From NCBI GenBank assembly GCA_018897195.1, contig JAHILH010000001.1, positions 92,565 to 156,564 on the forward strand: 64,000 nt of DNA, written 5' to 3'. The translations under genes were made by a program, and so were the position numbers. A model generated the notes under the pieces. That model saw only the letters and a program-made list of their open reading frames with translations. It had not been told where the DNA came from and made no database searches. Of this stretch, positions 29,425 through 39,696 are shown in pieces (position 1 is the stretch's first letter; every line of letters begins with the position of its first letter). This DNA is from Patescibacteria group bacterium. GTDB lineage: Bacteria; Patescibacteriota; Patescibacteriia; Patescibacteriales; UBA12075.

Positions 29425-29430
29425 TAATTG

Positions 29431-29501
29431 CTCGGGAATAGGGATTCGAACCCCAATTGACTGGACCAAAACCAGCTGTCTTGCCTTTGGACGATTCCCG
29501 A
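29431..29501 (-). tRNA. tRNA-Gln (anticodon UUG)
   Basis: Reverse complement folds as a cloverleaf. Acceptor TCGGGAA/TTCCCGA with the U1-A72 pair typical of bacterial tRNA-Gln; anticodon loop TTTTGGT (TTG); T-arm GGGGTTCGAATCCCT; no encoded CCA. Confidence 0.85.
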
Positions 29502-29634: not shown

Positions 29635-29701
29635 TTGACAATTGTTACTTAAATTACTAATGTTGCGATAATCCCTCCTGATATAAGGAGGGTTGTTTTT
29701 T
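29635..29701 (+). promoter_or_regulatory. promoter followed directly by an intrinsic-terminator-like hairpin (lysA leader)
   Basis: TTGACA (29635-40), 17 nt, TAATGT (29658-63). Then CCCTCCT-gatata-AGGAGGG (29673-92) plus TTGTTTTTT. A second extended -10, TGtTATAAT, lies at 29736-44. Confidence 0.45.
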
Positions 29702-29768: not shown

Positions 29769-31097
29769 ATGGTGATGTCGCAGATATTTAAAGATCGTTT
29801 GTTTCCGCTGATTCCTAAGATTGCGTATGATTTTCGTCCAATTATGGCTGGTAATAAAAATTATCCAGTTCCGTCATGGGCGCTTAGTCCTGGATTTCAC
29901 GTTTACGATGAGCAGGGTATTCGTGACACGATTACCTTGATGCAAAAGCTGTTTTTTACCGCTCATCTGGGAACCAATTTCTTTGCCGTCAAAGCTTGTC
30001 CCAATGTTCAGATTTTGAAGATTATGTTGGACGCTGGCTTTGGTCTGGATTGTGCCTCACCAACAGAGCTTTATCGAGCGCAGTTGGCTGGTGCCTTGCC
30101 GCATCAGGTGATGTATACCTCCAACAACACGCATCCCTCTCATTATGAGTACGCGATGAGTGTGGCCGGCATTCTTAATCTTGATGATATTTCTTTCATC
30201 GATAAGTTGCCGCGCGTGCCGGAGCGAATTTGTTTTCGCTATAACCCGGGCGAACGTCGAACCGAAGGTAGTAATTCGATTATTGGTAATCCTGTCAACC
30301 AGAAATATGGTTTGCAGTATGATCAAATTATTGATGCCTATAAAAAGGTGCAAGACAAAGGAGCGACTATTTTTGGAATCCATACGATGTATGCGTCCAA
30401 TTGTCGTGATGCCAAAATCTTGGCTGGTAATGCCAAGATGCAACTTGAGATGGCGGAACGAATACAAGACATGCTTGGGATTCAACTTGAATTCATTAAT
30501 ATTGGCGGGGGCCTGGGTGTTAATTATAACCCAGAAGATCAACCGCTTGATATTGTGGAAATGTCTGAATTGATCAATCATTATTTGGATGATTTCAAGA
30601 CTCGTCGTGGCTATTTGCCAGAGTTGTATATGGAATCAGGGCGTTTTGTCACCGGTCCGAATGGTGTGTTGGTGTCGCAGGTAATCAATAAGATGGATAA
30701 GTATAAACAATTCATCGGTGTTGATATTTGCGATGCCGCCGATATTTTGCGAGCGGGAATTTATCCTTCGCCTCACGAAGTTAGTATCTTGTGTTCGGAT
30801 GGAGAAGAGAAAATACTTGGTCCGAAAAGAACAGTTTCAATTGTTGGTCCGCTGTGTGAAAACATTCACATGATTTCTGATCGAAATTTGCCAATTATAT
30901 GTGAAGATGATTTTGTCGTCGTTCATGATACTGGCGCTCATGGTATTGCCATGGCGATGCGTTATAATGGATGGGGTGAATCGCAACAATTGTTGTTGCG
31001 ACCAGATAATTCAGTAGTGAGAATCAGTAATGCAGCTACCATTGCCGGTTTATTGGCGACGGAAACTTTGCTCAATGAAAAAACTGTGCAGTATTAA
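29769..31097 (+). CDS. lysA: fold-III PLP decarboxylase, diaminopimelate decarboxylase-like
   Basis: FAVKACPN (PLP Lys), GGGLGV, ESGR, GPLCEN motifs; SD AAGGAGG 6 nt upstream. Substrate assignment rests on the dapL/dapB neighbours. Confidence 0.7.
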   Translation: MVMSQIFKDRLFPLIPKIAYDFRPIMAGNKNYPVPSWALSPGFHVYDEQGIRDTITLMQKLFFTAHLGTNFFAVKACPNVQILKIMLDAGFGLDCASPTELYRAQLAGALPHQVMYTSNNTHPSHYEYAMSVAGILNLDDISFIDKLPRVPERICFRYNPGERRTEGSNSIIGNPVNQKYGLQYDQIIDAYKKVQDKGATIFGIHTMYASNCRDAKILAGNAKMQLEMAERIQDMLGIQLEFINIGGGLGVNYNPEDQPLDIVEMSELINHYLDDFKTRRGYLPELYMESGRFVTGPNGVLVSQVINKMDKYKQFIGVDICDAADILRAGIYPSPHEVSILCSDGEEKILGPKRTVSIVGPLCENIHMISDRNLPIICEDDFVVVHDTGAHGIAMAMRYNGWGESQQLLLRPDNSVVRISNAATIAGLLATETLLNEKTVQY

Positions 31098-31126
31098 TCC
31101 ATCAACCTATGATGAGGAGAATGAAC

Positions 31127-32329
31127 ATGCAAGAAAGCAAATTACCACCAGGTGGACAGAATTTGTTTCAAGAGATTAAGAAACGAGTGACAGCGGCTGA
31201 GGCGGCTGGTCAAAAGATTTGGCGATTGGGGATTGGACAACCAAGCGGGCCGGCACTCATTTCAGCAAGAATCGCCGCGTGCCAGGCTGTTATGAAAGAT
31301 GATGAGTCAATGCATGAATATCAAGATAACGGTTCGCCGGGTGTACCGGGATTTGCTCAAAAGTTTGTCAACCTTCATCAAGTAAGACTTTTGGATGAGG
31401 GGTTGGCTTATTTACCGATTCCGGGTATCAAACCGATGTTGGGGTTGATACCGATGGCGTGTGGCCATGTTGGTTTTAACGACAGGGGTCTTACGTATAA
31501 GGAGGTTAAAGTGGCGACTATGACCAGTCCTGGTTATCCAACGCCGGCCGTACAGTGTCAATACCAATGCGTTGAAAATTATGCGCTAAGAACAAATACA
31601 GATAACAATTTTTTGTTTTCTCCTAGGGATATTACGAAAGGGACAACATTGCTGATGCTGAATTATCCGCATAACCCCAGTGGCCAGGTGGCTACTGCTG
31701 ATTATTGGGAGGATATATGCGATTATTGTGATCAGAAAAACATCAGAATTTTCAATGACGCTGCCTATGCCATGTTGACCTACAACAAAGACGCGGCGAC
31801 CTTGGCCAGTGTTGCCCAGCATTTTCCAAATCTGTCCTGGTGCGAGGCGTATTCAGCCTCTAAGGTAATTGCGAATGGCACAGGTTGGCGTATTGGTGCC
31901 ATGGTCGGCTCGTCCGATTTTATTGGCGACATCGCAACGATTAAGGGTAATACCGACAGTGGTTTCTTTGCACCGGCGGCCTACGGCGTACTCAAGTGTA
32001 TGCAGGATGACATGGAGAGTGTTTTGAAAAATCGCGATATGTATCGCGATAGAAACTTTCTCTTGCATGATCTTCTTGAATTCAGAGGTATGAAGCTGAC
32101 AGTTGTTCCAGGTGCAGGTTTTTTCTCTCTGTGGCTTGCACCCAGTGAGGCCTTTGGTCAAAAAATCCAGAATGCTGAGCAGTTTAATTATTTGATGATT
32201 GAAAAAACCGGTGTGGTCGGCGTGCATTTCGGTCCGTATATCCGCTATTCGGTCACGTCGCCAATCGAACAACCAGAATGGCAAGAAGCCATCGCAAACG
32301 CCTTTGAGCAGGCGAATGTAAAGTATTAA
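31127..32329 (+). CDS. dapL: class I PLP aminotransferase, LL-diaminopimelate aminotransferase (DapL)-like by context
   Basis: Start moved to ATG 31127 (SD GAGGAG 7 nt upstream). NYPHNPSG and YSASKVIANGTGWRIG motifs. Aminotransferase fold is confident; the DapL assignment is contextual. Confidence 0.6.
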   Translation: MQESKLPPGGQNLFQEIKKRVTAAEAAGQKIWRLGIGQPSGPALISARIAACQAVMKDDESMHEYQDNGSPGVPGFAQKFVNLHQVRLLDEGLAYLPIPGIKPMLGLIPMACGHVGFNDRGLTYKEVKVATMTSPGYPTPAVQCQYQCVENYALRTNTDNNFLFSPRDITKGTTLLMLNYPHNPSGQVATADYWEDICDYCDQKNIRIFNDAAYAMLTYNKDAATLASVAQHFPNLSWCEAYSASKVIANGTGWRIGAMVGSSDFIGDIATIKGNTDSGFFAPAAYGVLKCMQDDMESVLKNRDMYRDRNFLLHDLLEFRGMKLTVVPGAGFFSLWLAPSEAFGQKIQNAEQFNYLMIEKTGVVGVHFGPYIRYSVTSPIEQPEWQEAIANAFEQANVKY

Positions 32330-32355
32330 CGTTCTTTCTTAAGTAGTTTTATTAC

Positions 32356-32391
32356 ACCCCCGCATTTTTATAATGTGGGGGTATTTTTTTT
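32356..32391 (+). terminator. intrinsic terminator after the aminotransferase gene
   Basis: ACCCCCGCAT / ATGTGGGGGT stem followed by T8. Confidence 0.8.
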
Positions 32392-32404
32392 ATATTTTAA
32401 TGAC

Positions 32405-32442
32405 AAGAAAAAAGGAGAACAATCGTTAGAAAGTTCTCCTTT
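32405..32442 (-). terminator. intrinsic terminator after dapB (minus strand)
   Basis: AAGGAGAAC / GTTCTCCTT 9-bp stem, followed on the minus strand by T6. Confidence 0.75.
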
Positions 32443-32463
32443 GTGTAGACGTGAGAGCGCAGG

Positions 32464-33303
32464 TTATCCGCGCATTACGTCTATCATGCTGAAACATTTG
32501 CCATTAACTCCTTTGGCAATTTTTTTTGCCAGGAAGTCTACGGCTTTGAGTGTGCCGTCGACATAGGTTTCGCGGCCACAGACATTGTGCTCGAAGCCGA
32601 GGCTGACATTGCCGTCTGGGGAGCCAAGATGATATCGATGAAAACCGTGTCCGGCGAATGCCGTTGGGGGAACGCCCATTAGCCCTTGTTCGAATGGGTC
32701 GCGTATGGCCCTGATATTGTCTTCGGTGAAATTGACGCCAAGTTTACAGAGCAGTTTGCCGATGGCAATAGCCGTACCGCTTTTGTCTTTTTTTGCGGCC
32801 TGATGACTTTCGATAACGAGGGCTTGCCAGTCGGATAATGCATTGGGATAGTTCTTGGCAGCGTATTCGATCATGTCCATCATCATTACGACGGGTATGG
32901 ACATGTTCGGCGCAATGACGGCGACGGTGAGAGACCGTTTCACGGTTGCGGCAAGTAAGGCACGATCTCCGCCGGTTGTGCCCATGACAAAGGGCAGTTT
33001 GTTTAAGCTGTAAAATTCACAATTATCATTTGCAGCATTTGGTTGAGTAAAATCAACTACAATACAATCCGGATATGCTGAAATAATCGTATCCAGGGCT
33101 TGTTGACGCTGAGATGGCTCAAGAAGAGTCATCTTGCTGGTATGACGTAGATCGAAATCAAGAAAATAATCTTCACGACCAAGCCCCGGTCCCGTAAATG
33201 CATATGGAACCAACATATATCGCTCATTTCTTGTAATGCGTTCTGCCAGCATGAGTGCCATATTCCCCGGTAATCCTGCCAATAAAACTGGAATTTTTTT
33301 CAT
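32464..33303 (-). CDS. dapB: 4-hydroxy-tetrahydrodipicolinate reductase, plant/chlamydial-type DapB
   Basis: FVMGTTGGDR, ESHQAAKKDKSGTA, GHGFHRYHL, HNVCGRETYVDGTLKAVDFLAKKI closely resemble my recollection of the plant-type DHDPR sequence. SD AGGGAG upstream. Confidence 0.75.
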   Translation of the reverse strand: MKKIPVLLAGLPGNMALMLAERITRNERYMLVPYAFTGPGLGREDYFLDFDLRHTSKMTLLEPSQRQQALDTIISAYPDCIVVDFTQPNAANDNCEFYSLNKLPFVMGTTGGDRALLAATVKRSLTVAVIAPNMSIPVVMMMDMIEYAAKNYPNALSDWQALVIESHQAAKKDKSGTAIAIGKLLCKLGVNFTEDNIRAIRDPFEQGLMGVPPTAFAGHGFHRYHLGSPDGNVSLGFEHNVCGRETYVDGTLKAVDFLAKKIAKGVNGKCFSMIDVMRG

Positions 33304-33540
33304 CGTTCATCTCCCTTGATTGTGGTTATAAAGTGCGTTAATTATTTCTTTGTGCATAATTACTGTCGTGATCTTAGCAGAAATATTGTGGTTTGTCAAC
33401 CAGTGACAATCTTAATTTTATCAGTATTCTTGACTTATTTATCAATTTATGCTAGTATAAGCCGATAAGTCAAAATGATTTATATAATTTGTTCGTTAAT
33501 GTGATTATAAAAAAATAATTATTCAAAGATGGAGGAAAGG

Positions 33541-33792
33541 ATGTTCAAAGGTAATAATGCAATGAACAATGAAGGTTCTGAAAAAAAGCCCAGACGAGTG
33601 CATGAGATATTTGCACCATTTCCAGCCCAGCTCGCCAAAGTACAAGATGAACTTCGGCTTGCAAGGCAGGCACTTGATTGTGTTAATTATACAACTGGCA
33701 AGGAGTGTCCGGAGCATAGGGCGACGATTACAGAATTGGAACTTCGCCTTCAGCCCTTGTATAAGGATATGGCGAACAATCTCAGTCAATGA
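33541..33792 (+). CDS. small hypothetical protein (83 aa)
   Basis: SD GGAGGA just upstream of ATG 33541; promoter TTGACT-17-TGcTAGTAT at 33430-58; terminator at 33821-57. Confidence 0.45.
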   Translation: MFKGNNAMNNEGSEKKPRRVHEIFAPFPAQLAKVQDELRLARQALDCVNYTTGKECPEHRATITELELRLQPLYKDMANNLSQ

Positions 33793-33910: not shown

Positions 33911-34108
33911 TTAAGCAAGCTTAACATTTACTGCGTTCAAACCTTTTGGAGATTCTTCTGTTTCGAATGTCACGTTGTCGCCTTCTTGGATTTCGTTAAA
34001 AGTAACGCCAACCAATGAATTGCTGTGAAAGAATAAATCTTTGTCCAAACTTGAAGATGTGATGAAGCCGAAGCCTTTGTCCATCTTCTTTTTTACTGAT
34101 CCGTTCAT
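33911..34108 (-). CDS. cold-shock domain protein
   Basis: 65 aa; KGFGFI (RNP1-like) and FFHSNS (RNP2-like) motifs; no SD and AT-rich, unlike its neighbours. Confidence 0.85.
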   Translation of the reverse strand: MNGSVKKKMDKGFGFITSSSLDKDLFFHSNSLVGVTFNEIQEGDNVTFETEESPKGLNAVNVKLA

Positions 34109-34466
34109 AGTTTTGTGATAGATAGTTTATAAAATTTGCAAATTTTTTAAATATTTTTGTGAAAGTCGACTACTTTTCTAAAATAATTTTTTACTTCATA
34201 ATCTTAGCATATTGCCAGGAATTAGTCAAGCGATTTGTGGTTATTCGGAATAATATATTTCTTGGGTCTTGATTCTGGTAAAAATTGTTACAATTTTAGC
34301 CAATTTTATGAACTTTCCGACCGTGGCATGACTTGCATATAAACATTGACTTTTTTCATTTTTTCTGTAGTATAAAAATATATTTACCCTAATTTTGGGG
34401 TATTTTATTTTGTTCATTGATAACTGAATAATAGTTATTTACTAATCTAAAAGGGAGGAGGGGAGA

Positions 34467-37400
34467 ATGAGTTCAATCGCGCATCTTTTTTGTATGAATC
34501 CTGATGGGAGTGAGTATTGTTTTAACGTTGGGTTAGTGGAGCCGTTGACAGCAGATGAGTTTGAGAAAATGAAGAAAGCGTTGGCTGATGGTTTTATCAA
34601 AGAAAGCATGAAGGACGTTTCTTCTTTGGATGGTGATGTGATAGAGTTGGGGCCACGAATGAATTGTGAGACTCCTTGGTCTTCCAATATGGTTTCGATT
34701 TGCCAGTCGATCGGCCTGGGAAAGGTGAATCGGGTGGAGCGATCGAGGCGGTATGTGGTGCCGGAGGGCATTTCGCGTGACGAGTTTATTGCGGATAATC
34801 ATGATCGCATGACCGAGTGTGAGTACCCGGGAGCTTTGCAGACATTTTCAACGGGAATTGAGCCTCAAGCAGTATATGAGGTACCCATGATTGAAAAGGG
34901 GCCTGATGCCTTGAAGGATATACCGGGGATTTCGATGGATGACTGGGACCGGCGGTTTTATTATGATTACTTTGTAATGAAGAATAACCGCAATCCGACC
35001 ATTGTTGAGATTTTGGACTTGAATAATGCCAATAGCGAGCATTCGCGTCACGGCTATTTCAAGGGCAAGATGATTATTGATGGACAGGAAATGCCCTGGA
35101 CTTTATTTGAATTGGTGATGGAGACTTGGAATGCAAATCCAGGAAATAGTATTATTGCTTTCAGTGATAATTCCAGCGGTATTAAAGGTCGTTTTATTCA
35201 GACACTTGTGCCGGAACAGCCGGGTATGTATTCTCGATTGGTTCGCGATGAGCGGCTTTATCACATTATCTTTACGGCGGAGACGCACAACTTTCCGACT
35301 GGCGTGGCACCATTTCCTGGTGCGGAAACCGGATCGGGTGGTCGTATTCGTGACATTCAGGCAACTGGACGCGGCGGATTGATGGGAATTGGTACGGCAG
35401 GCTATTGCGTGTCCAATCTTCATATTGCAAATTACACCTTACCCTGGGAGCTTGAGTTTAAGCGTCCGGAAAATTTGGCAAGCGGTTTGCAGATTTTGAT
35501 TGAGGCCAGTAATGGTGGTTCGCGCTATGGCAACGAAATTGGCGAGGCATTGGTGCTTGGTTTTGCTCGATCATTTGATTTGCGTCCCTGGGGTGGTGCG
35601 CGTTGGAGCTTTATCAAGCCGATAATGTTTACTGCTGGGATGGGACAAATCGATCACCGGCATATCAGAAAAAACGACGCCGAAGAAGGAATGCTCATCG
35701 TACAGATTGGCGGACCTGCTTATCGCGTTGGTTTTGGTGGCGGTGCGGCTTCGAGCCTAATTCAGGGCGACCAAGATGCCGGGCTTGATTTCAATGCTGT
35801 GCAGCGTGGCAATGCAGAAATGGAACAAAAGATGAACCGTGTTGTCCGCACTTGTTCAGAAATGGGGGAAAATAATCCTCTTGATGTCATTCACGATCAG
35901 GGTGCTGGTGGACCAGCTAATGTCCTGAAAGAATTAGTGGAAAAATCTGGTGGACAGATTGAAATACGCAAGATAAAGGTCGGAGATCCGACCATGTCGG
36001 TGTTGGAAATCTATGTTGCAGAATATCAAGAGCGGAATGGCTTATTGATTCGCGAAGAACGGATTGAGGAGTTTAAGAAGATCTGCGAACGCGAAAAAGT
36101 AAATTGCGAAGTTCTTGGATCTGTGACAATGGATGGGAAATTTGTTGTCCATGATTCAAATGATGGCACAACGCCGGTCAATATTGACTTGCATGAACTC
36201 ATGGGAGGAATGCCTCAGAAGACTTTTGAGGTTAAGACGGTTGAGGATGACTTGAGGTCATTGGTATTGCCGGAAGGTTTGACAGTGGAGGACGCGCTTG
36301 CAAGAGTGTTGCGCTTGGTCTCCGTTGGTTCAAAAAGGTTTTTAACCAACAAGGGAGACAGGAGTGTAACTGGATTGGTAGCTCAGCAGCAATGTTGCGG
36401 CCCTCTCCAATTGCCTGTCAGTGATGTGGCGGTAATGGCGCAAAGTTTAGTGCCCAATGACAATGGTGTGCATTCCGGAATGGCAACCTCAATCGGTGAA
36501 CAGCCGATCAAGATGTTGGTTAATCCGGCGGCTGGTGCGCGCATGGCAGTTGGCGAAGCAATAACGAATCTAGCCGGAGCAAAAATCGACGGTCTTGATA
36601 GCGTGAAATGTTCTGCGAACTGGATGTGGGCACCGAAACTTGAAGGTGAGGGTGCGGCGATGTATTCGGCCGCAACGGCCTTGCGCGATTGTTTGATTGC
36701 GCTTGATGTTGCCATTGATGGCGGAAAGGATAGCTTGTCGATGGCGACCAGAGTTGGTGCCGAGACAGTCAAATCACCGCGGCAGTTGGTTATTTCGGCT
36801 TATGTTGGAATAGCGGATATTACCAAAGTGGTGACGCCGGACATCAAGAAGCCGGGCGAAAGTCAGTTGATTTTTATTGACTTGGCAAATGGAAAAAATC
36901 GTCTGGGTGGATCGGCTTTGGCGCATGTCCATGGTCAGATTGGCAATGAAAGTCCGGACATGGATGATCCTGAGTTGGTCAAGCGCGCGTTTAATTGCGT
37001 GCAGGATTTGATTGACAAGGATTTGATTTTGGCTTGCCATGATCGGAGCGACGGTGGTCTAATTACAACGTTGCTGGAAATGGCTTTTGCCGGTAATTGT
37101 GGACTGGAAATACAAATGGGCACAGTTGAAGGCGAAGTAATCCCAGTGTTGTTTTCTGAAGAATTGGGATTGGTTATTGAGTGTACTTATAATTATGCAA
37201 GCATAGTAATAAGGAGATTGCTGGACAACAATATCCCATACATACCCATTGGACGAACATTGAGTACAAATCAGTATATTACTTTGTATTTCGGCGCTGA
37301 GCTTGTTTTTAATGAATCAATGCCGGAATTACGGAATCTTTGGGAAGAGACCAGTTATCAGTTGGAAAAGCTACAGGCAAATCCAACGTGTGCTGATGCA

Positions 37401-38291
37401 GAAAGGGAGAACATCTTTGATCGCCCTGGCCCGCAGTACAAGCTCACGTTTGAACCAAAACCAACCGCCCCTGAAATTCTTCAGGCAGAGAACAAGCCAA
37501 AGGTTTGTATCTTGCGTGAAGAAGGGACGAATGGCGATCGGGAGATGGCGGCAGCTTTTGAAGCCGCCGGATTTGAACCCTGGGACGTGACGATGACCGA
37601 TTTACTTGCAGAACGTGTTTCTTTAACGATGTTTCGAGGCTTGGTGGCCGCCGGCGGATTTTCTTATGCTGATGTGCCACAAAGCGCCAAGGGTTGGGCG
37701 GCAACTATTTTGTTCAATGAAAAGTTGCGGGCTGAGTTTGATAAGTTTTACAAACGGCCTGATACTTTTTCTTTGGGCGTGTGTAATGGTTGTCAGTTGT
37801 TCGGCCTACTTGGTTGGGTTCCGTATACCGGAATCAAGCCAGAACACCAACCGCGGTTCGTTCATAATGACTCCGGTCGTTTCGAATCGCGATGGTCAAG
37901 CGTCAGGATTTCGGATAGTCCATCCATTTTGTTTAAGGATATGGCTGGCTCTATTCTCGGTGTTCATGTTGCACACGGTGAAGGTAGGCTTATTTTTCCG
38001 GATGAAACTGTTAGGGCAGTAACCGTCGGTAATAAACTGTGTGCAATGTCATATGTTGATGATAGCGGGAGGGATACAAATAAATATCCCTTCTGTCCGA
38101 ACGGCAGTTGGGAAGGTGTTACAGCTCTCACAACTACCGATGGTCGGCATACAGCCATGATGCCTCATCCCGAACGTGCCTTTCTTAAATGGCAATGGCA
38201 TCATATGCCGGAACAAATGAAAAAAGAGCTTGAGGCTTCGCCTTGGCTCAAAATGTTCCAAAATGCCTATGATTGGTGCATGAAAAATTAA
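34467..38291 (+). CDS. purL: phosphoribosylformylglycinamidine (FGAM) synthase, single-chain large PurL
   Basis: 1274 aa, collinear with my recollection of E. coli PurL: NSEHSRH, ETHNFPTGVAPFPGAETGSGGRIRD, glutaminase GVCNGCQL, HGEGR, MPHPER. Strong SD. Confidence 0.93.
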   Translation: MSSIAHLFCMNPDGSEYCFNVGLVEPLTADEFEKMKKALADGFIKESMKDVSSLDGDVIELGPRMNCETPWSSNMVSICQSIGLGKVNRVERSRRYVVPEGISRDEFIADNHDRMTECEYPGALQTFSTGIEPQAVYEVPMIEKGPDALKDIPGISMDDWDRRFYYDYFVMKNNRNPTIVEILDLNNANSEHSRHGYFKGKMIIDGQEMPWTLFELVMETWNANPGNSIIAFSDNSSGIKGRFIQTLVPEQPGMYSRLVRDERLYHIIFTAETHNFPTGVAPFPGAETGSGGRIRDIQATGRGGLMGIGTAGYCVSNLHIANYTLPWELEFKRPENLASGLQILIEASNGGSRYGNEIGEALVLGFARSFDLRPWGGARWSFIKPIMFTAGMGQIDHRHIRKNDAEEGMLIVQIGGPAYRVGFGGGAASSLIQGDQDAGLDFNAVQRGNAEMEQKMNRVVRTCSEMGENNPLDVIHDQGAGGPANVLKELVEKSGGQIEIRKIKVGDPTMSVLEIYVAEYQERNGLLIREERIEEFKKICEREKVNCEVLGSVTMDGKFVVHDSNDGTTPVNIDLHELMGGMPQKTFEVKTVEDDLRSLVLPEGLTVEDALARVLRLVSVGSKRFLTNKGDRSVTGLVAQQQCCGPLQLPVSDVAVMAQSLVPNDNGVHSGMATSIGEQPIKMLVNPAAGARMAVGEAITNLAGAKIDGLDSVKCSANWMWAPKLEGEGAAMYSAATALRDCLIALDVAIDGGKDSLSMATRVGAETVKSPRQLVISAYVGIADITKVVTPDIKKPGESQLIFIDLANGKNRLGGSALAHVHGQIGNESPDMDDPELVKRAFNCVQDLIDKDLILACHDRSDGGLITTLLEMAFAGNCGLEIQMGTVEGEVIPVLFSEELGLVIECTYNYASIVIRRLLDNNIPYIPIGRTLSTNQYITLYFGAELVFNESMPELRNLWEETSYQLEKLQANPTCADAERENIFDRPGPQYKLTFEPKPTAPEILQAENKPKVCILREEGTNGDREMAAAFEAAGFEPWDVTMTDLLAERVSLTMFRGLVAAGGFSYADVPQSAKGWAATILFNEKLRAEFDKFYKRPDTFSLGVCNGCQLFGLLGWVPYTGIKPEHQPRFVHNDSGRFESRWSSVRISDSPSILFKDMAGSILGVHVAHGEGRLIFPDETVRAVTVGNKLCAMSYVDDSGRDTNKYPFCPNGSWEGVTALTTTDGRHTAMMPHPERAFLKWQWHHMPEQMKKELEASPWLKMFQNAYDWCMKN

Positions 38292-38319
38292 CTATTATTC
38301 GATAAGGAGATAAAAAATC

Positions 38320-38355
38320 AAACCCCGTTGCTATTGCAGTAACGGGGTTTTCTAT
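38320..38355 (+). terminator. intrinsic terminator after purL
   Basis: AAACCCCGTT / AACGGGGTTT stem followed by a T-rich run. Confidence 0.8.
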
Positions 38356-38466
38356 TGACTATTTTCCTAAAATATCCTAATCTTAAATCAAATTAAGACA
38401 GGGGAGGGTTCTTTTTTTTGAATCGTTCTTTTTATTTTTATTAATATTTCGAGAAGGAGATTGGAT

Positions 38467-39696
38467 ATGTGGCACATGCAAGATTCAAATGATCAGCCTG
38501 CTGGACAAGGTGATGGTGGACAAGAAAGTCAGTATGCACAGCTTGGAGTAGATGCTCACAAAACAGGCGTGAAAAAAAGCTTTAAGCCAGTAATTGACAA
38601 CGACTATCCTTTGGCGTTTTGCAACATTGTGAAGGATCGTTTGAATCCTGGCTATGTATTGACGCAACACATGGATGGCGATGGTAGCAAAATGCTTCAG
38701 CGATTACTTCATTATCATGAAACTGGAGATGCCACCGTCTTTCGCGGCGCGGTTGATGATGCATGGTCGATGAATACCGGAGACATTGCGGCTAGCGGAT
38801 TTGTTGATGAGTTATTTTTGACTGATGTTATAAATATCAACGGAATATCTGCGCCAAAGGATGTAATAATGGAGCAGCTTGCTATCAGAATTGCCGAATT
38901 GAAACAGCTTTATATCGAGCATGGATTCGATGTAACGTTTTTCGGTGGCGAAACGGCGGACTTGCCTGATCAGGTTAAGACAGTTGTTTTTGATATCTGT
39001 GCCAGTTCCAGAGTACATGAGACTGGTCTGATTGAGGGTAATATTGAGCCCGGTGATGCGATTTTCGGAATGGCCAGCGATGGCCAAGTAGCCTGGGAAA
39101 AGGAAGGTAATTCCGGCATTATGTCGAATGGCTTAACCATGGCGCGCATCAAATTGATGCACGCGAACTATGTCAATAAACATCCGGAGCTTATGCGACA
39201 GGAAAAACCGTTCGAGGGTCGGTTCTCAATCCATGGAATGGATGAAAGACTTGGCACAATGTCAGTTTCAGAGGCAATCATGTCGCCGACACGTCAATGG
39301 GCGTTGGTTATCAAGAGGATTATCGACGGATTACGCAGTCATGACAGCCTTCATTTGCTTCATGGTGTCGTTATGAATACCGGCGGTGGCGCCACTAAGG
39401 TGTTGAATATCGGCCGGAATATTCATTATGTAAAAAAAATGCCGATACCACCACCGATTTTTCAGTTGATTAAGTTTGAATCTGGTGAAGAATGGGAAAA
39501 TATGTTTACCGCCTTTAATTGCGGGGTTGGCATTGATATTATAGGATCTGACAAGGGTGGTGTTTTGCAGGATGTCCTGAATTCGGTTTCAGAGTGGACC
39601 AGGGTGAAATTGTTTCGATTGGGTGATTGTCATCACTCGGAAAGTCCAGATAATCTCGTTACGCTCTATACGCCTTACGGTGAGTTTGCCTATTAA
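38467..39696 (+). CDS. purM: AIR synthase (PurM), long ~400-aa variant
   Basis: Start moved to ATG 38467 (SD AAGGAG 8 nt upstream). HMDGDGSK, GGETADLP and GIMSNGLT motifs of the PurM superfamily. Length and N-terminus resemble the long PurM form I recall from Bacteroidota. Confidence 0.7.
   Translation: MWHMQDSNDQPAGQGDGGQESQYAQLGVDAHKTGVKKSFKPVIDNDYPLAFCNIVKDRLNPGYVLTQHMDGDGSKMLQRLLHYHETGDATVFRGAVDDAWSMNTGDIAASGFVDELFLTDVININGISAPKDVIMEQLAIRIAELKQLYIEHGFDVTFFGGETADLPDQVKTVVFDICASSRVHETGLIEGNIEPGDAIFGMASDGQVAWEKEGNSGIMSNGLTMARIKLMHANYVNKHPELMRQEKPFEGRFSIHGMDERLGTMSVSEAIMSPTRQWALVIKRIIDGLRSHDSLHLLHGVVMNTGGGATKVLNIGRNIHYVKKMPIPPPIFQLIKFESGEEWENMFTAFNCGVGIDIIGSDKGGVLQDVLNSVSEWTRVKLFRLGDCHHSESPDNLVTLYTPYGEFAY

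What the first reader, a model, noticed from the sequence alone, without database searches (positions are those of the whole stretch)
29769..33303. Partial DapL-type diaminopimelate/lysine module: plant-type DapB, DapL-like aminotransferase and LysA, without dapA or dapF in view
The reductase matches my recollection of the plant/chlamydial DapB form (FVMGTTGGDR, ESHQAxKxDxSGTA, HNVCGR). The adjacent class I aminotransferase and fold-III decarboxylase fit DapL and LysA. That is the aminotransferase shortcut pathway known from Chlamydiae, cyanobacteria, plants and some other bacteria. Here lysA and dapL are co-directional and dapB converges on them. No dapA, dapF, asd or lysC is in the window. 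The window also encodes MurF, two class B PBPs and an L,D-transpeptidase. The module could therefore serve peptidoglycan (DAP/Lys) supply from a scavenged intermediate rather than general lysine biosynthesis.
Basis: partly seen in the sequence, partly recalled or inferred. Interest (0 to 1): 0.55.

Follow-up and report, generated by a model that had tools for sequence, protein, structure and literature searches.

The report
Orphan lysine-pathway cassette in CPR bacterium
A tiny groundwater (CPR/Patescibacteria) bacterium keeps three intact, selected genes for the last steps of lysine synthesis, although its genome lacks the enzymes that should feed them and the epimerase that should link them. 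The cassette is real and recurrent, but how it gets its substrate is unexplained.

Summary
They encode:
- a diaminopimelate (DAP) decarboxylase, LysA, of a clade shared with Desulfobacterota;
- a class I aminotransferase (here AT1);
- a plant/Desulfobacterota-type DapB.

The genome (1.17 Mb, 6 contigs, 95.6% complete) has no dapA, asd, dapF, DapF2-type racemase, dapD or ddh. Its aspartokinase is split by a frameshift.

AT1 is not a member of either described DapL family. It forms its own long-branch clade. Five Dehalococcoidia genomes that carry it hold a TIGR03540-type DapL as well (over the cut-off in four, a truncated fragment in the fifth). Even so, AT1 lies next to lysA in 38 of 58 loci across CPR classes and DPANN archaea. 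It is joined to dapB in two different arrangements. In one genus it sits beside genuine dapA and dapB, with asd and lysC elsewhere in the genome. A DapL-like role is therefore the best reading.

DapF was found in 0 of 121 genomes of the same order and 5 of 401 of the phylum.

All three genes show purifying selection (dN/dS 0.06-0.15), so the cassette is not a relic.

MurE lacks the DAP-binding Arg and lies next to a FemAB gene, so lysine rather than DAP is the likely product needed.

This scan found the same cassette before in other CPR genomes. I rate it a new variant of a known pathway, of moderate interest.

The parts
29430..29501 (-). tRNA-Gln (UUG) just upstream of the cassette; marks a variable slot
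   Evidence: ARAGORN; Rfam tRNA 50.3 bits
29673..29692 (+). Hairpin CCCTCC...GGAGGG followed by a T-run in the lysA leader; possible attenuator, no Rfam family
   Evidence: no lysine riboswitch found
29769..31097 (+). lysA: diaminopimelate decarboxylase of the 'HTM.AS / GAHG' clade shared with Desulfobacterota
   Evidence: TIGR01048 219 bits, under the cut-off of 297.9. Best solved relatives are all DAP decarboxylases. 46-47% identical to Desulfobacterota LysA, which sits at the cut-off. K75, E289/R292, R328/Y332 and C363/E364 are invariant. dN/dS 0.059.
31109..32329 (+). AT1: class I (fold type I) PLP aminotransferase of an uncharacterised clade; probable tetrahydrodipicolinate aminotransferase
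   Evidence: PF00155. The five best NCBIfam hits are all DapL models but far below their cut-offs. Own long-branch clade. Adjacent to lysA in 38 of 58 loci. dN/dS 0.075.
32356..32382 (.). GC-rich hairpin with T-runs between the convergent AT1 and dapB genes; likely a two-way terminator
32464..33303 (-). dapB, plant/Desulfobacterota type (4-hydroxy-tetrahydrodipicolinate reductase)
   Evidence: TIGR02130 256 bits (cut-off 294.55) against TIGR00036 76 bits. DapB_N and DapB_C domains. Catalytic and binding motifs conserved. dN/dS 0.148.
33371..33399 (-). Promoter-like site (TTGACA-17-TAAGAT with TG) upstream of dapB
   Evidence: a consensus match only

Best explanation
The three genes form a portable, GC-richer cassette for the end of an aminotransferase-type diaminopimelate (DAP)/lysine route. 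DapB reduces (hydroxy)dihydrodipicolinate to tetrahydrodipicolinate (THDP). AT1, a CPR-centred aminotransferase clade only distantly like DapL, aminates THDP to DAP. LysA decarboxylates DAP to L-lysine. Lysine is needed for proteins and probably for a lysine-type, cross-bridged peptidoglycan. The genome cannot make DapB's substrate (no Asd, no DapA, frameshifted aspartokinase) and has no DAP epimerase. The cassette must therefore be fed by a host-derived intermediate or by unrecognised enzymes. The LL-to-meso step must be bypassed, either by a stereo-tolerant LysA or by another racemase. Shown here: gene identities, conserved linkage, purifying selection, and the absence of the other genes. 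Inferred: the substrates, the direction of flow and the source of the precursor.
For: - Identities.
- Linkage in the order sample: lysA and AT1 are adjacent in all 10 AT1-bearing genomes.
- Linkage across species genomes: they are adjacent in 38 of 58 AT1 loci, and no other neighbour is conserved.
- Link to dapB: it joins the pair in two arrangements. It is convergent here and in a 77-88% identical relative that lies in a different neighbourhood. It is divergent in L046, L078 and L094.
- Full context in one genus: in genus g31 the pair sits beside dapA (375 bits) and classical dapB (302 bits). Those genomes also have asd and lysC but no Ddh or DapD. A class I aminotransferase must therefore make DAP there.
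- Selection: dN/dS is 0.059, 0.075 and 0.148.
- Missing genes in this genome: dapA, asd, dapF and an Alr/DapF2-type racemase.
- DapF is rare: a single 24.9-bit match, far under the cut-off, among 121 order genomes, and 5 of 401 phylum genomes, while a LysA-like gene is in 67 of 401.
- Precedents: a LysA that makes L-lysine from LL-DAP (bioRxiv 10.1101/2020.10.01.322594), and E. coli dapF mutants that still grow (bioRxiv 10.1101/2024.10.14.618325).
- Lysine-type wall: MurE has EDPY, and a FemAB gene is next to murE (PMC3829189).
Against: - AT1 fails every DapL family cut-off.
- Its 56-57% identical relatives in Dehalococcoidia co-exist with a TIGR03540-type DapL (601-614 bits in four genomes, a truncated 340-bit fragment in the fifth). 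AT1 may therefore do something else there.
- This genome and the g31 genomes also hold a second, generic AspAT-like aminotransferase that could do the DapL step.
- Six of the ten genomes with the pair lack dapA and asd, so the pair often works without any visible source of THDP.
- Plant-type dapB also occurs alone, without lysA or AT1, in some relatives.
- No transporter or source for the unstable DapB substrate is known.
Confidence: 0.5

Rival explanations
1. DAP salvage. The working core is LysA alone, turning meso-DAP scavenged from host or dead-cell peptidoglycan into lysine. AT1 and DapB are accessories with other or reverse roles and do not feed LysA.
For: A LysA-like gene occurs in 67 of 401 phylum genomes and 30 of 121 order genomes, mostly without AT1, dapA or dapF. 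The genome has no alanine racemase but has an M19 dipeptidase plus racemase pair, which points to scavenging of wall amino acids (note e1-2036872). Bacterivorous ciliates acquired lysA alone by gene transfer; its authors read it as amino-acid metabolism and lysine synthesis, and the DAP-salvage reading is my own (PMC13198582).
Against: It does not explain why AT1 is welded to lysA in 38 of 58 loci. It does not explain why dapB joins them twice independently, or why AT1 and dapB are under strong purifying selection. DPANN archaea, whose archaeal hosts have no DAP walls, carry the pair too.
Confidence: 0.2
2. Reaction order follows gene order. LysA makes lysine from DAP. AT1 removes lysine's alpha-amino group to give dehydropipecolate, as the plant DapL paralogue ALD1 does. 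The DapB-like reductase then reduces it to pipecolate, as a solute or an electron sink.
For: This is chemically coherent and needs no DapA, Asd or DapF. The gene order lysA-AT1-dapB fits it. DapL-like enzymes acting on lysine are known in plants (ALD1/SARD4; my own knowledge, not tested here).
Against: Most loci have the pair without any reductase. In g31 the pair sits with genuine dapA and dapB of a biosynthetic pathway. DapB keeps all the DapB-specific motifs. AT1 is remote from the DapL1/ALD1 family.
Confidence: 0.07
3. A decaying remnant of a once complete pathway, no longer functional.
For: The aspartokinase is frameshifted. dapA and asd are gone. Relatives show broken dapB and dapA fragments.
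Against: All three ORFs are intact with conserved catalytic residues. dN/dS is 0.06-0.15 against a relative at dS of about 1-1.7. The cassette has been moved as a unit to a new neighbourhood.
Confidence: 0.08
4. The missing genes (dapA, asd, dapF) exist but lie in unassembled gaps.
For: The assembly has 6 contigs and is 95.6% complete.
Against: Three unlinked genes would all have to fall in gaps. None of 11 same-family genomes has dapA and none has dapF. Only one of the 11 has a weak match to the Asd N-terminal domain (32.7 bits). Five other pair-bearing genomes show the same pattern.
Confidence: 0.05

Closest known systems
DapL (LL-diaminopimelate aminotransferase) variant of the DAP/lysine pathway (Chlamydia, plants, cyanobacteria, Desulfobacterota, methanogens; PMC4176475, PMC3390587)
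   Same: Plant-type DapB, a class I aminotransferase and LysA, with no DapD/DapC/DapE or Ddh. DapB and LysA are 44-47% identical to Desulfobacterota proteins.
   Different: The aminotransferase belongs to neither DapL1 (TIGR03542) nor DapL2 (TIGR03540). DapA, Asd and DapF are missing from the genome, and DapF is missing from nearly the whole phylum.
DapL2 / TIGR03540 'DapC_direct' aminotransferases
   Same: Closest curated models to AT1 (NF004937, TIGR03540, NF006756 are its top hits). Same fold and same PLP residues.
   Different: Scores are 134-153 bits against cut-offs of 507-593. AT1 is separated by a stem of about 2.6 changes per site from genuine DapL2 and from AspAT-like paralogues. It co-exists with DapL2 in Dehalococcoidia.
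Diaminopimelate decarboxylase LysA (TIGR01048; solved: 1KNW, 2YXX, 1TWI)
   Same: The PLP lysine, the EPGR-type Arg, the RxxxY motif and the CE motif for the distal end of DAP are all kept (PMC8277567).
   Different: The His that stacks on PLP is Met, and the phosphate-binding Tyr is His. Both changes are clade-wide and shared with Desulfobacterota LysA. The CPR forms have an extra stretch of about 20 residues at the N-terminus and score under the cut-off.
Stereo-promiscuous LysA of Phaeodactylum (bioRxiv 10.1101/2020.10.01.322594) and the alternative epimerase DapF2 (bioRxiv 10.1101/2024.10.14.618325)
   Same: Both are precedents for lysine synthesis without classical DapF.
   Different: No DapF2-type (Ala-racemase fold) gene is present here. 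Promiscuity of the CPR LysA is untested.
The same lysA-aminotransferase cassette noted earlier by this scan in other CPR genomes (e1-1005822, e1-1580217, e1-739172, e1-1288407)
   Same: A GC-richer lysA plus DapL-like pair, sometimes with dapB, in variable slots.
   Different: New in this report: genome-wide absence of the feeding steps, phylum-wide rarity of DapF, co-existence of AT1 with a TIGR03540-type DapL elsewhere, and selection estimates.

Membership tests
Plant-type DapB (TIGR02130) | Score over the curated cut-off (294.55 bits) | tested here: not met
   256.4 bits. It is still by far the best model (classical dapB scores 76). Desulfobacterota relatives at 45% identity pass with 334.8 bits.
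Plant-type DapB (TIGR02130) | DapB N- and C-domains, with the nucleotide-binding glycine motif and the E-S-H-Q..K.D.SGTA and HN..GR substrate motifs | tested here: met
   PF01113 and PF05173. The motifs are invariant in an alignment with plant-type and classical DapB.
Diaminopimelate decarboxylase LysA (TIGR01048) | Score over the curated cut-off (297.9 bits) | tested here: not met
   219.1 bits. None of the 30 LysA-like genes in the order passes. The nearest non-CPR clade scores 291-303 bits.
Diaminopimelate decarboxylase LysA (TIGR01048) | PLP lysine plus the residues that bind the distal carboxylate and amine of DAP (TmDAPDC K46, R249, R285, E315) | tested here: met
   K75, R292, R328 (with Y332) and E364 are invariant in 13 sequences. 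Their roles are taken from PMC8277567.
Diaminopimelate decarboxylase LysA (TIGR01048) | Specificity for the D-centre of meso-DAP | not testable with these tools
   This needs an enzyme assay with the LL, meso and DD isomers.
LL-diaminopimelate aminotransferase DapL (TIGR03542 DapL1; TIGR03540 DapL2) | Score over the family cut-off | tested here: not met
   TIGR03540 scores 133.9 against 593.25, and NF004937 scores 152.9 against 585. TIGR03542 is not among the 25 best of 45 matching models. No DapL structure matches at E<=1e-10.
LL-diaminopimelate aminotransferase DapL (TIGR03542 DapL1; TIGR03540 DapL2) | Gene linked with the other DAP/lysine genes | tested here: met
   Adjacent to lysA in 38 of 58 loci. 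Adjacent to dapB in five loci (plus one dapB fragment) and to dapA in two. Full dapB-dapA/lysA-AT1 cluster in g31.
LL-diaminopimelate aminotransferase DapL (TIGR03542 DapL1; TIGR03540 DapL2) | Only route from THDP to DAP in genomes with an otherwise complete pathway | tested here: inconclusive
   The g31 genomes have no Ddh or DapD but do hold a second, generic aminotransferase. In Dehalococcoidia AT1 co-exists with a TIGR03540-type DapL.
Complete DapL-type lysine pathway | LysC, Asd, DapA and DapF present | tested here: not met
   No Asd, DapA or DapF. LysC is split by a frameshift.

The most novel reading that the evidence does not exclude
CPR bacteria, and some DPANN archaea, use a lysine route that needs no DAP epimerase. 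The AT1-LysA pair would turn tetrahydrodipicolinate into L-lysine directly. Either this LysA clade decarboxylates LL-DAP, or AT1 has unusual stereochemistry. AT1 would then be a third, undescribed type of DAP-forming aminotransferase. In genomes such as this one the pair, with DapB, would run on an intermediate taken from the host.
Probability: 0.25. Interest if true: 0.65.

Novelty: new variant of a known kind. Interest (0 to 1): 0.4.

Why it matters
CPR bacteria are thought to make almost no amino acids, yet they need lysine or DAP for their walls.

A conserved, mobile and selected cassette that covers only the end of the lysine pathway says something concrete about what these cells take from their hosts. 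It lacks both the epimerase and the feeding steps. That points either to an imported pathway intermediate or to enzymes that annotation misses: a third DapL type, and an epimerase-free last step.

Both ideas can be tested directly with three small soluble enzymes and standard E. coli auxotrophs.

Tried and rejected
- Lysine riboswitch or other RNA element upstream of lysA: no Rfam match. Only the tRNA and sub-threshold noise appeared.
- Remnant of dapA in the 1.16-kb gap upstream of dapB: none. The gap holds an 87-aa ORF and a cold-shock gene. An hmmsearch of all six-frame ORFs with a CPR DapA profile gave a best E of 1.6.
- Asd analogue next to the aspartokinase: the 373-aa neighbour is an M29 aminopeptidase. 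There is no aldehyde-dehydrogenase (ProA-like) gene either.
- A third conserved gene, such as a hidden epimerase, next to the pair: none in 58 loci.
- Carboxynorspermidine or other polyamine decarboxylase reading of the lysA gene: rejected, because no such family appears among the hits.
- AlphaFold model of AT1 from a 14-sequence alignment: mean pLDDT 67.7, with the active-site region below 50. It was too poor for a fold comparison and was not used.
- ESM Atlas look-up of AT1: only generic aminotransferase clusters.
- Expression: no RNA holder listed. Only groundwater metagenome DNA runs hold the stretch.
- H. pylori DAP decarboxylase structure paper: not held in the library.
Full report
**What is there**

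The window is G000:C5:92565-156564 of a 1.17-Mb, 6-contig assembly rated 95.6% complete. Close homologues of all three proteins come from Patescibacteria/CPR metagenome bins. The stretch itself is held by groundwater metagenomes.

- lysA: 29769-31097 (+).
- A class I aminotransferase, here AT1: 31109-32329 (+), only 11 nt downstream of lysA.
- dapB: 32464-33303 (-), converging on the other two.

The surrounding anatomy is simple.
- A GC-rich hairpin with T-runs at 32356-32382 separates the convergent genes.
- A tRNA-Gln gene lies just upstream at 29430-29501.
- A promoter-like site lies upstream of dapB.

The three genes have 0.43-0.47 G+C in a 0.379 genome. Only 4.5% of 1.3-kb windows in the genome reach 0.44.

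**Identity of each gene**

DapB:
- It scores 256 bits on the plant-type model TIGR02130 (cut-off 294.55) and only 76 bits on classical dapB.
- It keeps every motif shared by plant-type and classical DapB.
- It is 44-46% identical to Desulfobacterota proteins, and one of these passes the plant-type model with 335 bits.

LysA:
- It scores 219 bits on TIGR01048 (cut-off 297.9).
- Its best solved relatives are all DAP decarboxylases.
- It belongs to a clade that includes Desulfobacterota LysA (46-47% identity), which scores 291-303 bits, right at the cut-off.
- The residues that bind the distal carboxylate and amine of DAP in the Thermotoga enzyme (R249, R285, E315; PMC8277567) are invariant here (R292, R328, E364).
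- Two odd features near PLP, His to Met and Tyr to His, are shared by the whole clade including the Desulfobacterota enzymes. They do not mark a new function in this genome.
- No polyamine decarboxylase family appears among the hits.

AT1 is the uncertain gene:
- Its five best NCBIfam hits are all LL-DAP aminotransferase models, at 88-153 bits against cut-offs of 486-593.
- No DapL structure matches it at E<=1e-10.
- In a tree with genuine DapL2 proteins and AspAT-like paralogues, AT1 sequences form their own clade on a stem of about 2.6 changes per site.
- Dehalococcoidia sequences nest inside the CPR diversity of that clade.
- The usual class I PLP residues are invariant in the family alignment: the SxSK lysine, Asn, Asp, Tyr and two Arg. 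Their roles are assigned from general knowledge of this fold.

**What the rest of the genome lacks**

Not found in G000:
- dapA (TIGR00674). My own hmmsearch of every six-frame ORF of at least 40 aa with a CPR DapA profile gave a best E of 1.6.
- asd.
- dapF (TIGR00652 and PF01678).
- An alanine-racemase-fold protein, which excludes the recently confirmed alternative epimerase DapF2 (bioRxiv 10.1101/2024.10.14.618325).
- Ddh and DapD.
- A ProA-like aldehyde dehydrogenase.

Present elsewhere in G000:
- An aspartokinase on contig C2. It is cut into a kinase ORF and an ACT-domain ORF by a one-base frameshift in a TGTGTG run.
- Two Asp/Glu-type racemases.
- A second, generic AspAT-like aminotransferase (AT2), whose best models are aspartate or general aminotransferases rather than DapL.

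**Comparative picture**

In a sample of 121 genomes of the same order:

| Gene | Genomes with a match |
|---|---|
| Plant-type DapB | 12 |
| dapA | 17 (12 over the cut-off) |
| LysA-like | 30 (none over the cut-off) |
| True AT1 | 10 |
| dapF | 0 (one 24.9-bit match, far under the cut-off) |

- In all ten AT1 genomes, AT1 lies directly beside lysA.
- Only four of the ten have dapA, and three have asd.
- The three genomes of genus g31 show the fullest form. Classical dapB (302 bits) and dapA (375 bits) lie divergently beside lysA-AT1, between lepA and murJ.
- Those g31 genomes also have asd and lysC elsewhere, but no Ddh, DapD or DapF. A class I aminotransferase must therefore make DAP there, and AT1 is the one in the operon.

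Across species-level genomes, 58 AT1 loci were found in many CPR classes, in Dehalococcoidia and in DPANN Nanoarchaeia.
- 38 have lysA adjacent.
- Five have dapB adjacent (three plant-type, two classical), and a sixth locus carries a short dapB fragment.
- Two have dapA adjacent.
- No other neighbour recurs.

In a phylum-wide sample of 401 genomes:
- a LysA-like gene is in 67;
- AT1 is in 2;
- DapF is in 5.

The cassette is therefore sporadic but phylogenetically broad. LysA without DapF is the normal state in this phylum.

**Is the cassette alive?**

A metagenome contig from a relative (77-88% protein identity) carries the same three genes in the same convergent arrangement. There they lie in a wholly different neighbourhood, among glycolysis genes.

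Against that relative, dN/dS is 0.059 for lysA, 0.075 for AT1 and 0.148 for dapB, with dS of about 1.0-1.7. dS is near saturation, so these ratios are approximate. All three genes, including the apparently substrate-less dapB, are under purifying selection, and they move as a unit.

**What argues against simply calling AT1 'DapL'**

Five Dehalococcoidia genomes that carry a 56-57% identical AT1 were searched with TIGR03540. Four also carry a full DapL2 (601-614 bits, over the cut-off of 593). The fifth has a truncated 230-aa fragment at 340 bits. Four of the five also show a further AspAT-like paralogue of about 295 bits. In those organisms AT1 is either redundant or does something else.

In addition, six of the ten pair-bearing CPR genomes have no visible way of making tetrahydrodipicolinate.

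**Likely product**

The MurE of this genome has EDPY where meso-DAP-adding enzymes have DNPR and the S. aureus lysine-adding enzyme has DNPA. The Arg that binds the free carboxylate of DAP is missing (PMC3829189).

A FemAB-family gene (158 bits) lies immediately upstream of murE. Such enzymes typically build cross-bridges on lysine-type walls. Nelson and Stegen reported such a gene in most Parcubacteria (PMC4508563).

The pair also occurs in wall-less DPANN archaea. Lysine itself, rather than wall DAP, is therefore the probable end product. This step is an inference.

**Mechanism and its gaps**

The best reading is DapB, then AT1, then LysA, acting as the tail of an aminotransferase-type lysine pathway. 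Two gaps remain.

1. The missing epimerase.
   - A preprint shows that a diatom LysA forms L-lysine from LL-DAP, although slowly (bioRxiv 10.1101/2020.10.01.322594).
   - E. coli dapF mutants still grow (bioRxiv 10.1101/2024.10.14.618325).
   - A tolerant LysA or a moonlighting racemase is therefore plausible.
2. The source of DapB's substrate in this genome. It is unexplained. It could be host supply, unrecognised enzymes, or a different substrate.

The rivals are LysA-centred DAP salvage, a lysine-to-pipecolate reading that follows gene order, a dead relic, and assembly gaps. Each is weighed in its own section of this report. The relic reading is contradicted by the selection data. The gap reading is contradicted by the same pattern in relatives.

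**Verdict**

This scan has met the same cassette before in other CPR genomes (e1-1005822, e1-1580217, e1-739172, e1-1288407) and judged it fairly ordinary gene borrowing.

This analysis adds four points:
- the feeding steps are absent genome-wide;
- DapF is nearly absent from the phylum;
- AT1 is a distinct clade that can co-exist with a TIGR03540-type DapL;
- all three genes are under selection.

It is a new variant of a known pathway, of moderate interest, with a testable and more novel possibility: an epimerase-free route that uses a third type of DAP-forming aminotransferase.

Noticed in passing
G000:C2:144487-145750 (outside the window; locus L042 10467-11733, minus strand): An aspartokinase gene is split into a 241-aa kinase ORF and a 187-aa ACT-domain ORF by a one-base frameshift in a TGTGTG run. 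It could be a young pseudogene, an assembly error or a real two-piece enzyme. An M29 aminopeptidase and an ABC exporter flank it.
   Followed up: partly
window 34467-39696: A large single-chain PurL (1544 bits on TIGR01735) is followed by a 411-aa protein with only a weak PurM-like match (62 bits, no Pfam hit). Both have 0.45-0.47 G+C and strong ribosome-binding sites, like the lysine cassette. Whether the rest of purine synthesis exists in this genome was not checked.
   Followed up: no
G000:C1:15414-17192 (locus L111 1415-3193): The genome's second class I aminotransferase (AspAT-like) continues as a 592-aa ORF. Its C-terminal 150 residues weakly resemble a Mur-ligase middle domain. It could be a fusion or a read-through.
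   Followed up: no
G000 whole genome; G000:C3:97740-98360 and G000:C2:128292-128882: No alanine-racemase-fold gene was found, so the source of D-alanine is unclear. Two Asp/Glu-type racemases are present.
   Followed up: partly
G000:C5:10276-13095 (locus L001 37-2856; before the window): A FemAB-family gene lies directly upstream of a murE whose DAP-recognition motif reads EDPY instead of DNPR.
   Followed up: partly
loci L050, L053, L057, L058, L059, L097: The Dehalococcoidia copies of AT1 nest inside the CPR diversity in the tree. In the five of these genomes that were searched (all but L059's) they co-exist with a TIGR03540-type DapL. This suggests transfer between CPR and Dehalococcoidia, and a role there that is not simply DapL.
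   Followed up: partly
loci L074 and L101: Contigs labelled Candidatus Nanoarchaeia (DPANN archaea) carry AT1. In L074 lysA lies directly upstream. Several contigs labelled 'Gammaproteobacteria' (L052, L056, L061, L080 and others) carry the same CPR-type pair and may be mislabelled bins.
   Followed up: no
window 29673-29692: A hairpin CCCTCC...GGAGGG followed by a T-run lies in the lysA leader, about 80 nt before the start codon. It may be a regulatory attenuator. It matches no Rfam family.
   Followed up: partly
window 33529-33792 and about 33913-34110: The gap upstream of dapB holds an 87-aa ORF with no family and, read by eye on the minus strand, a cold-shock-protein-like gene. No trace of dapA is present.
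   Followed up: partly
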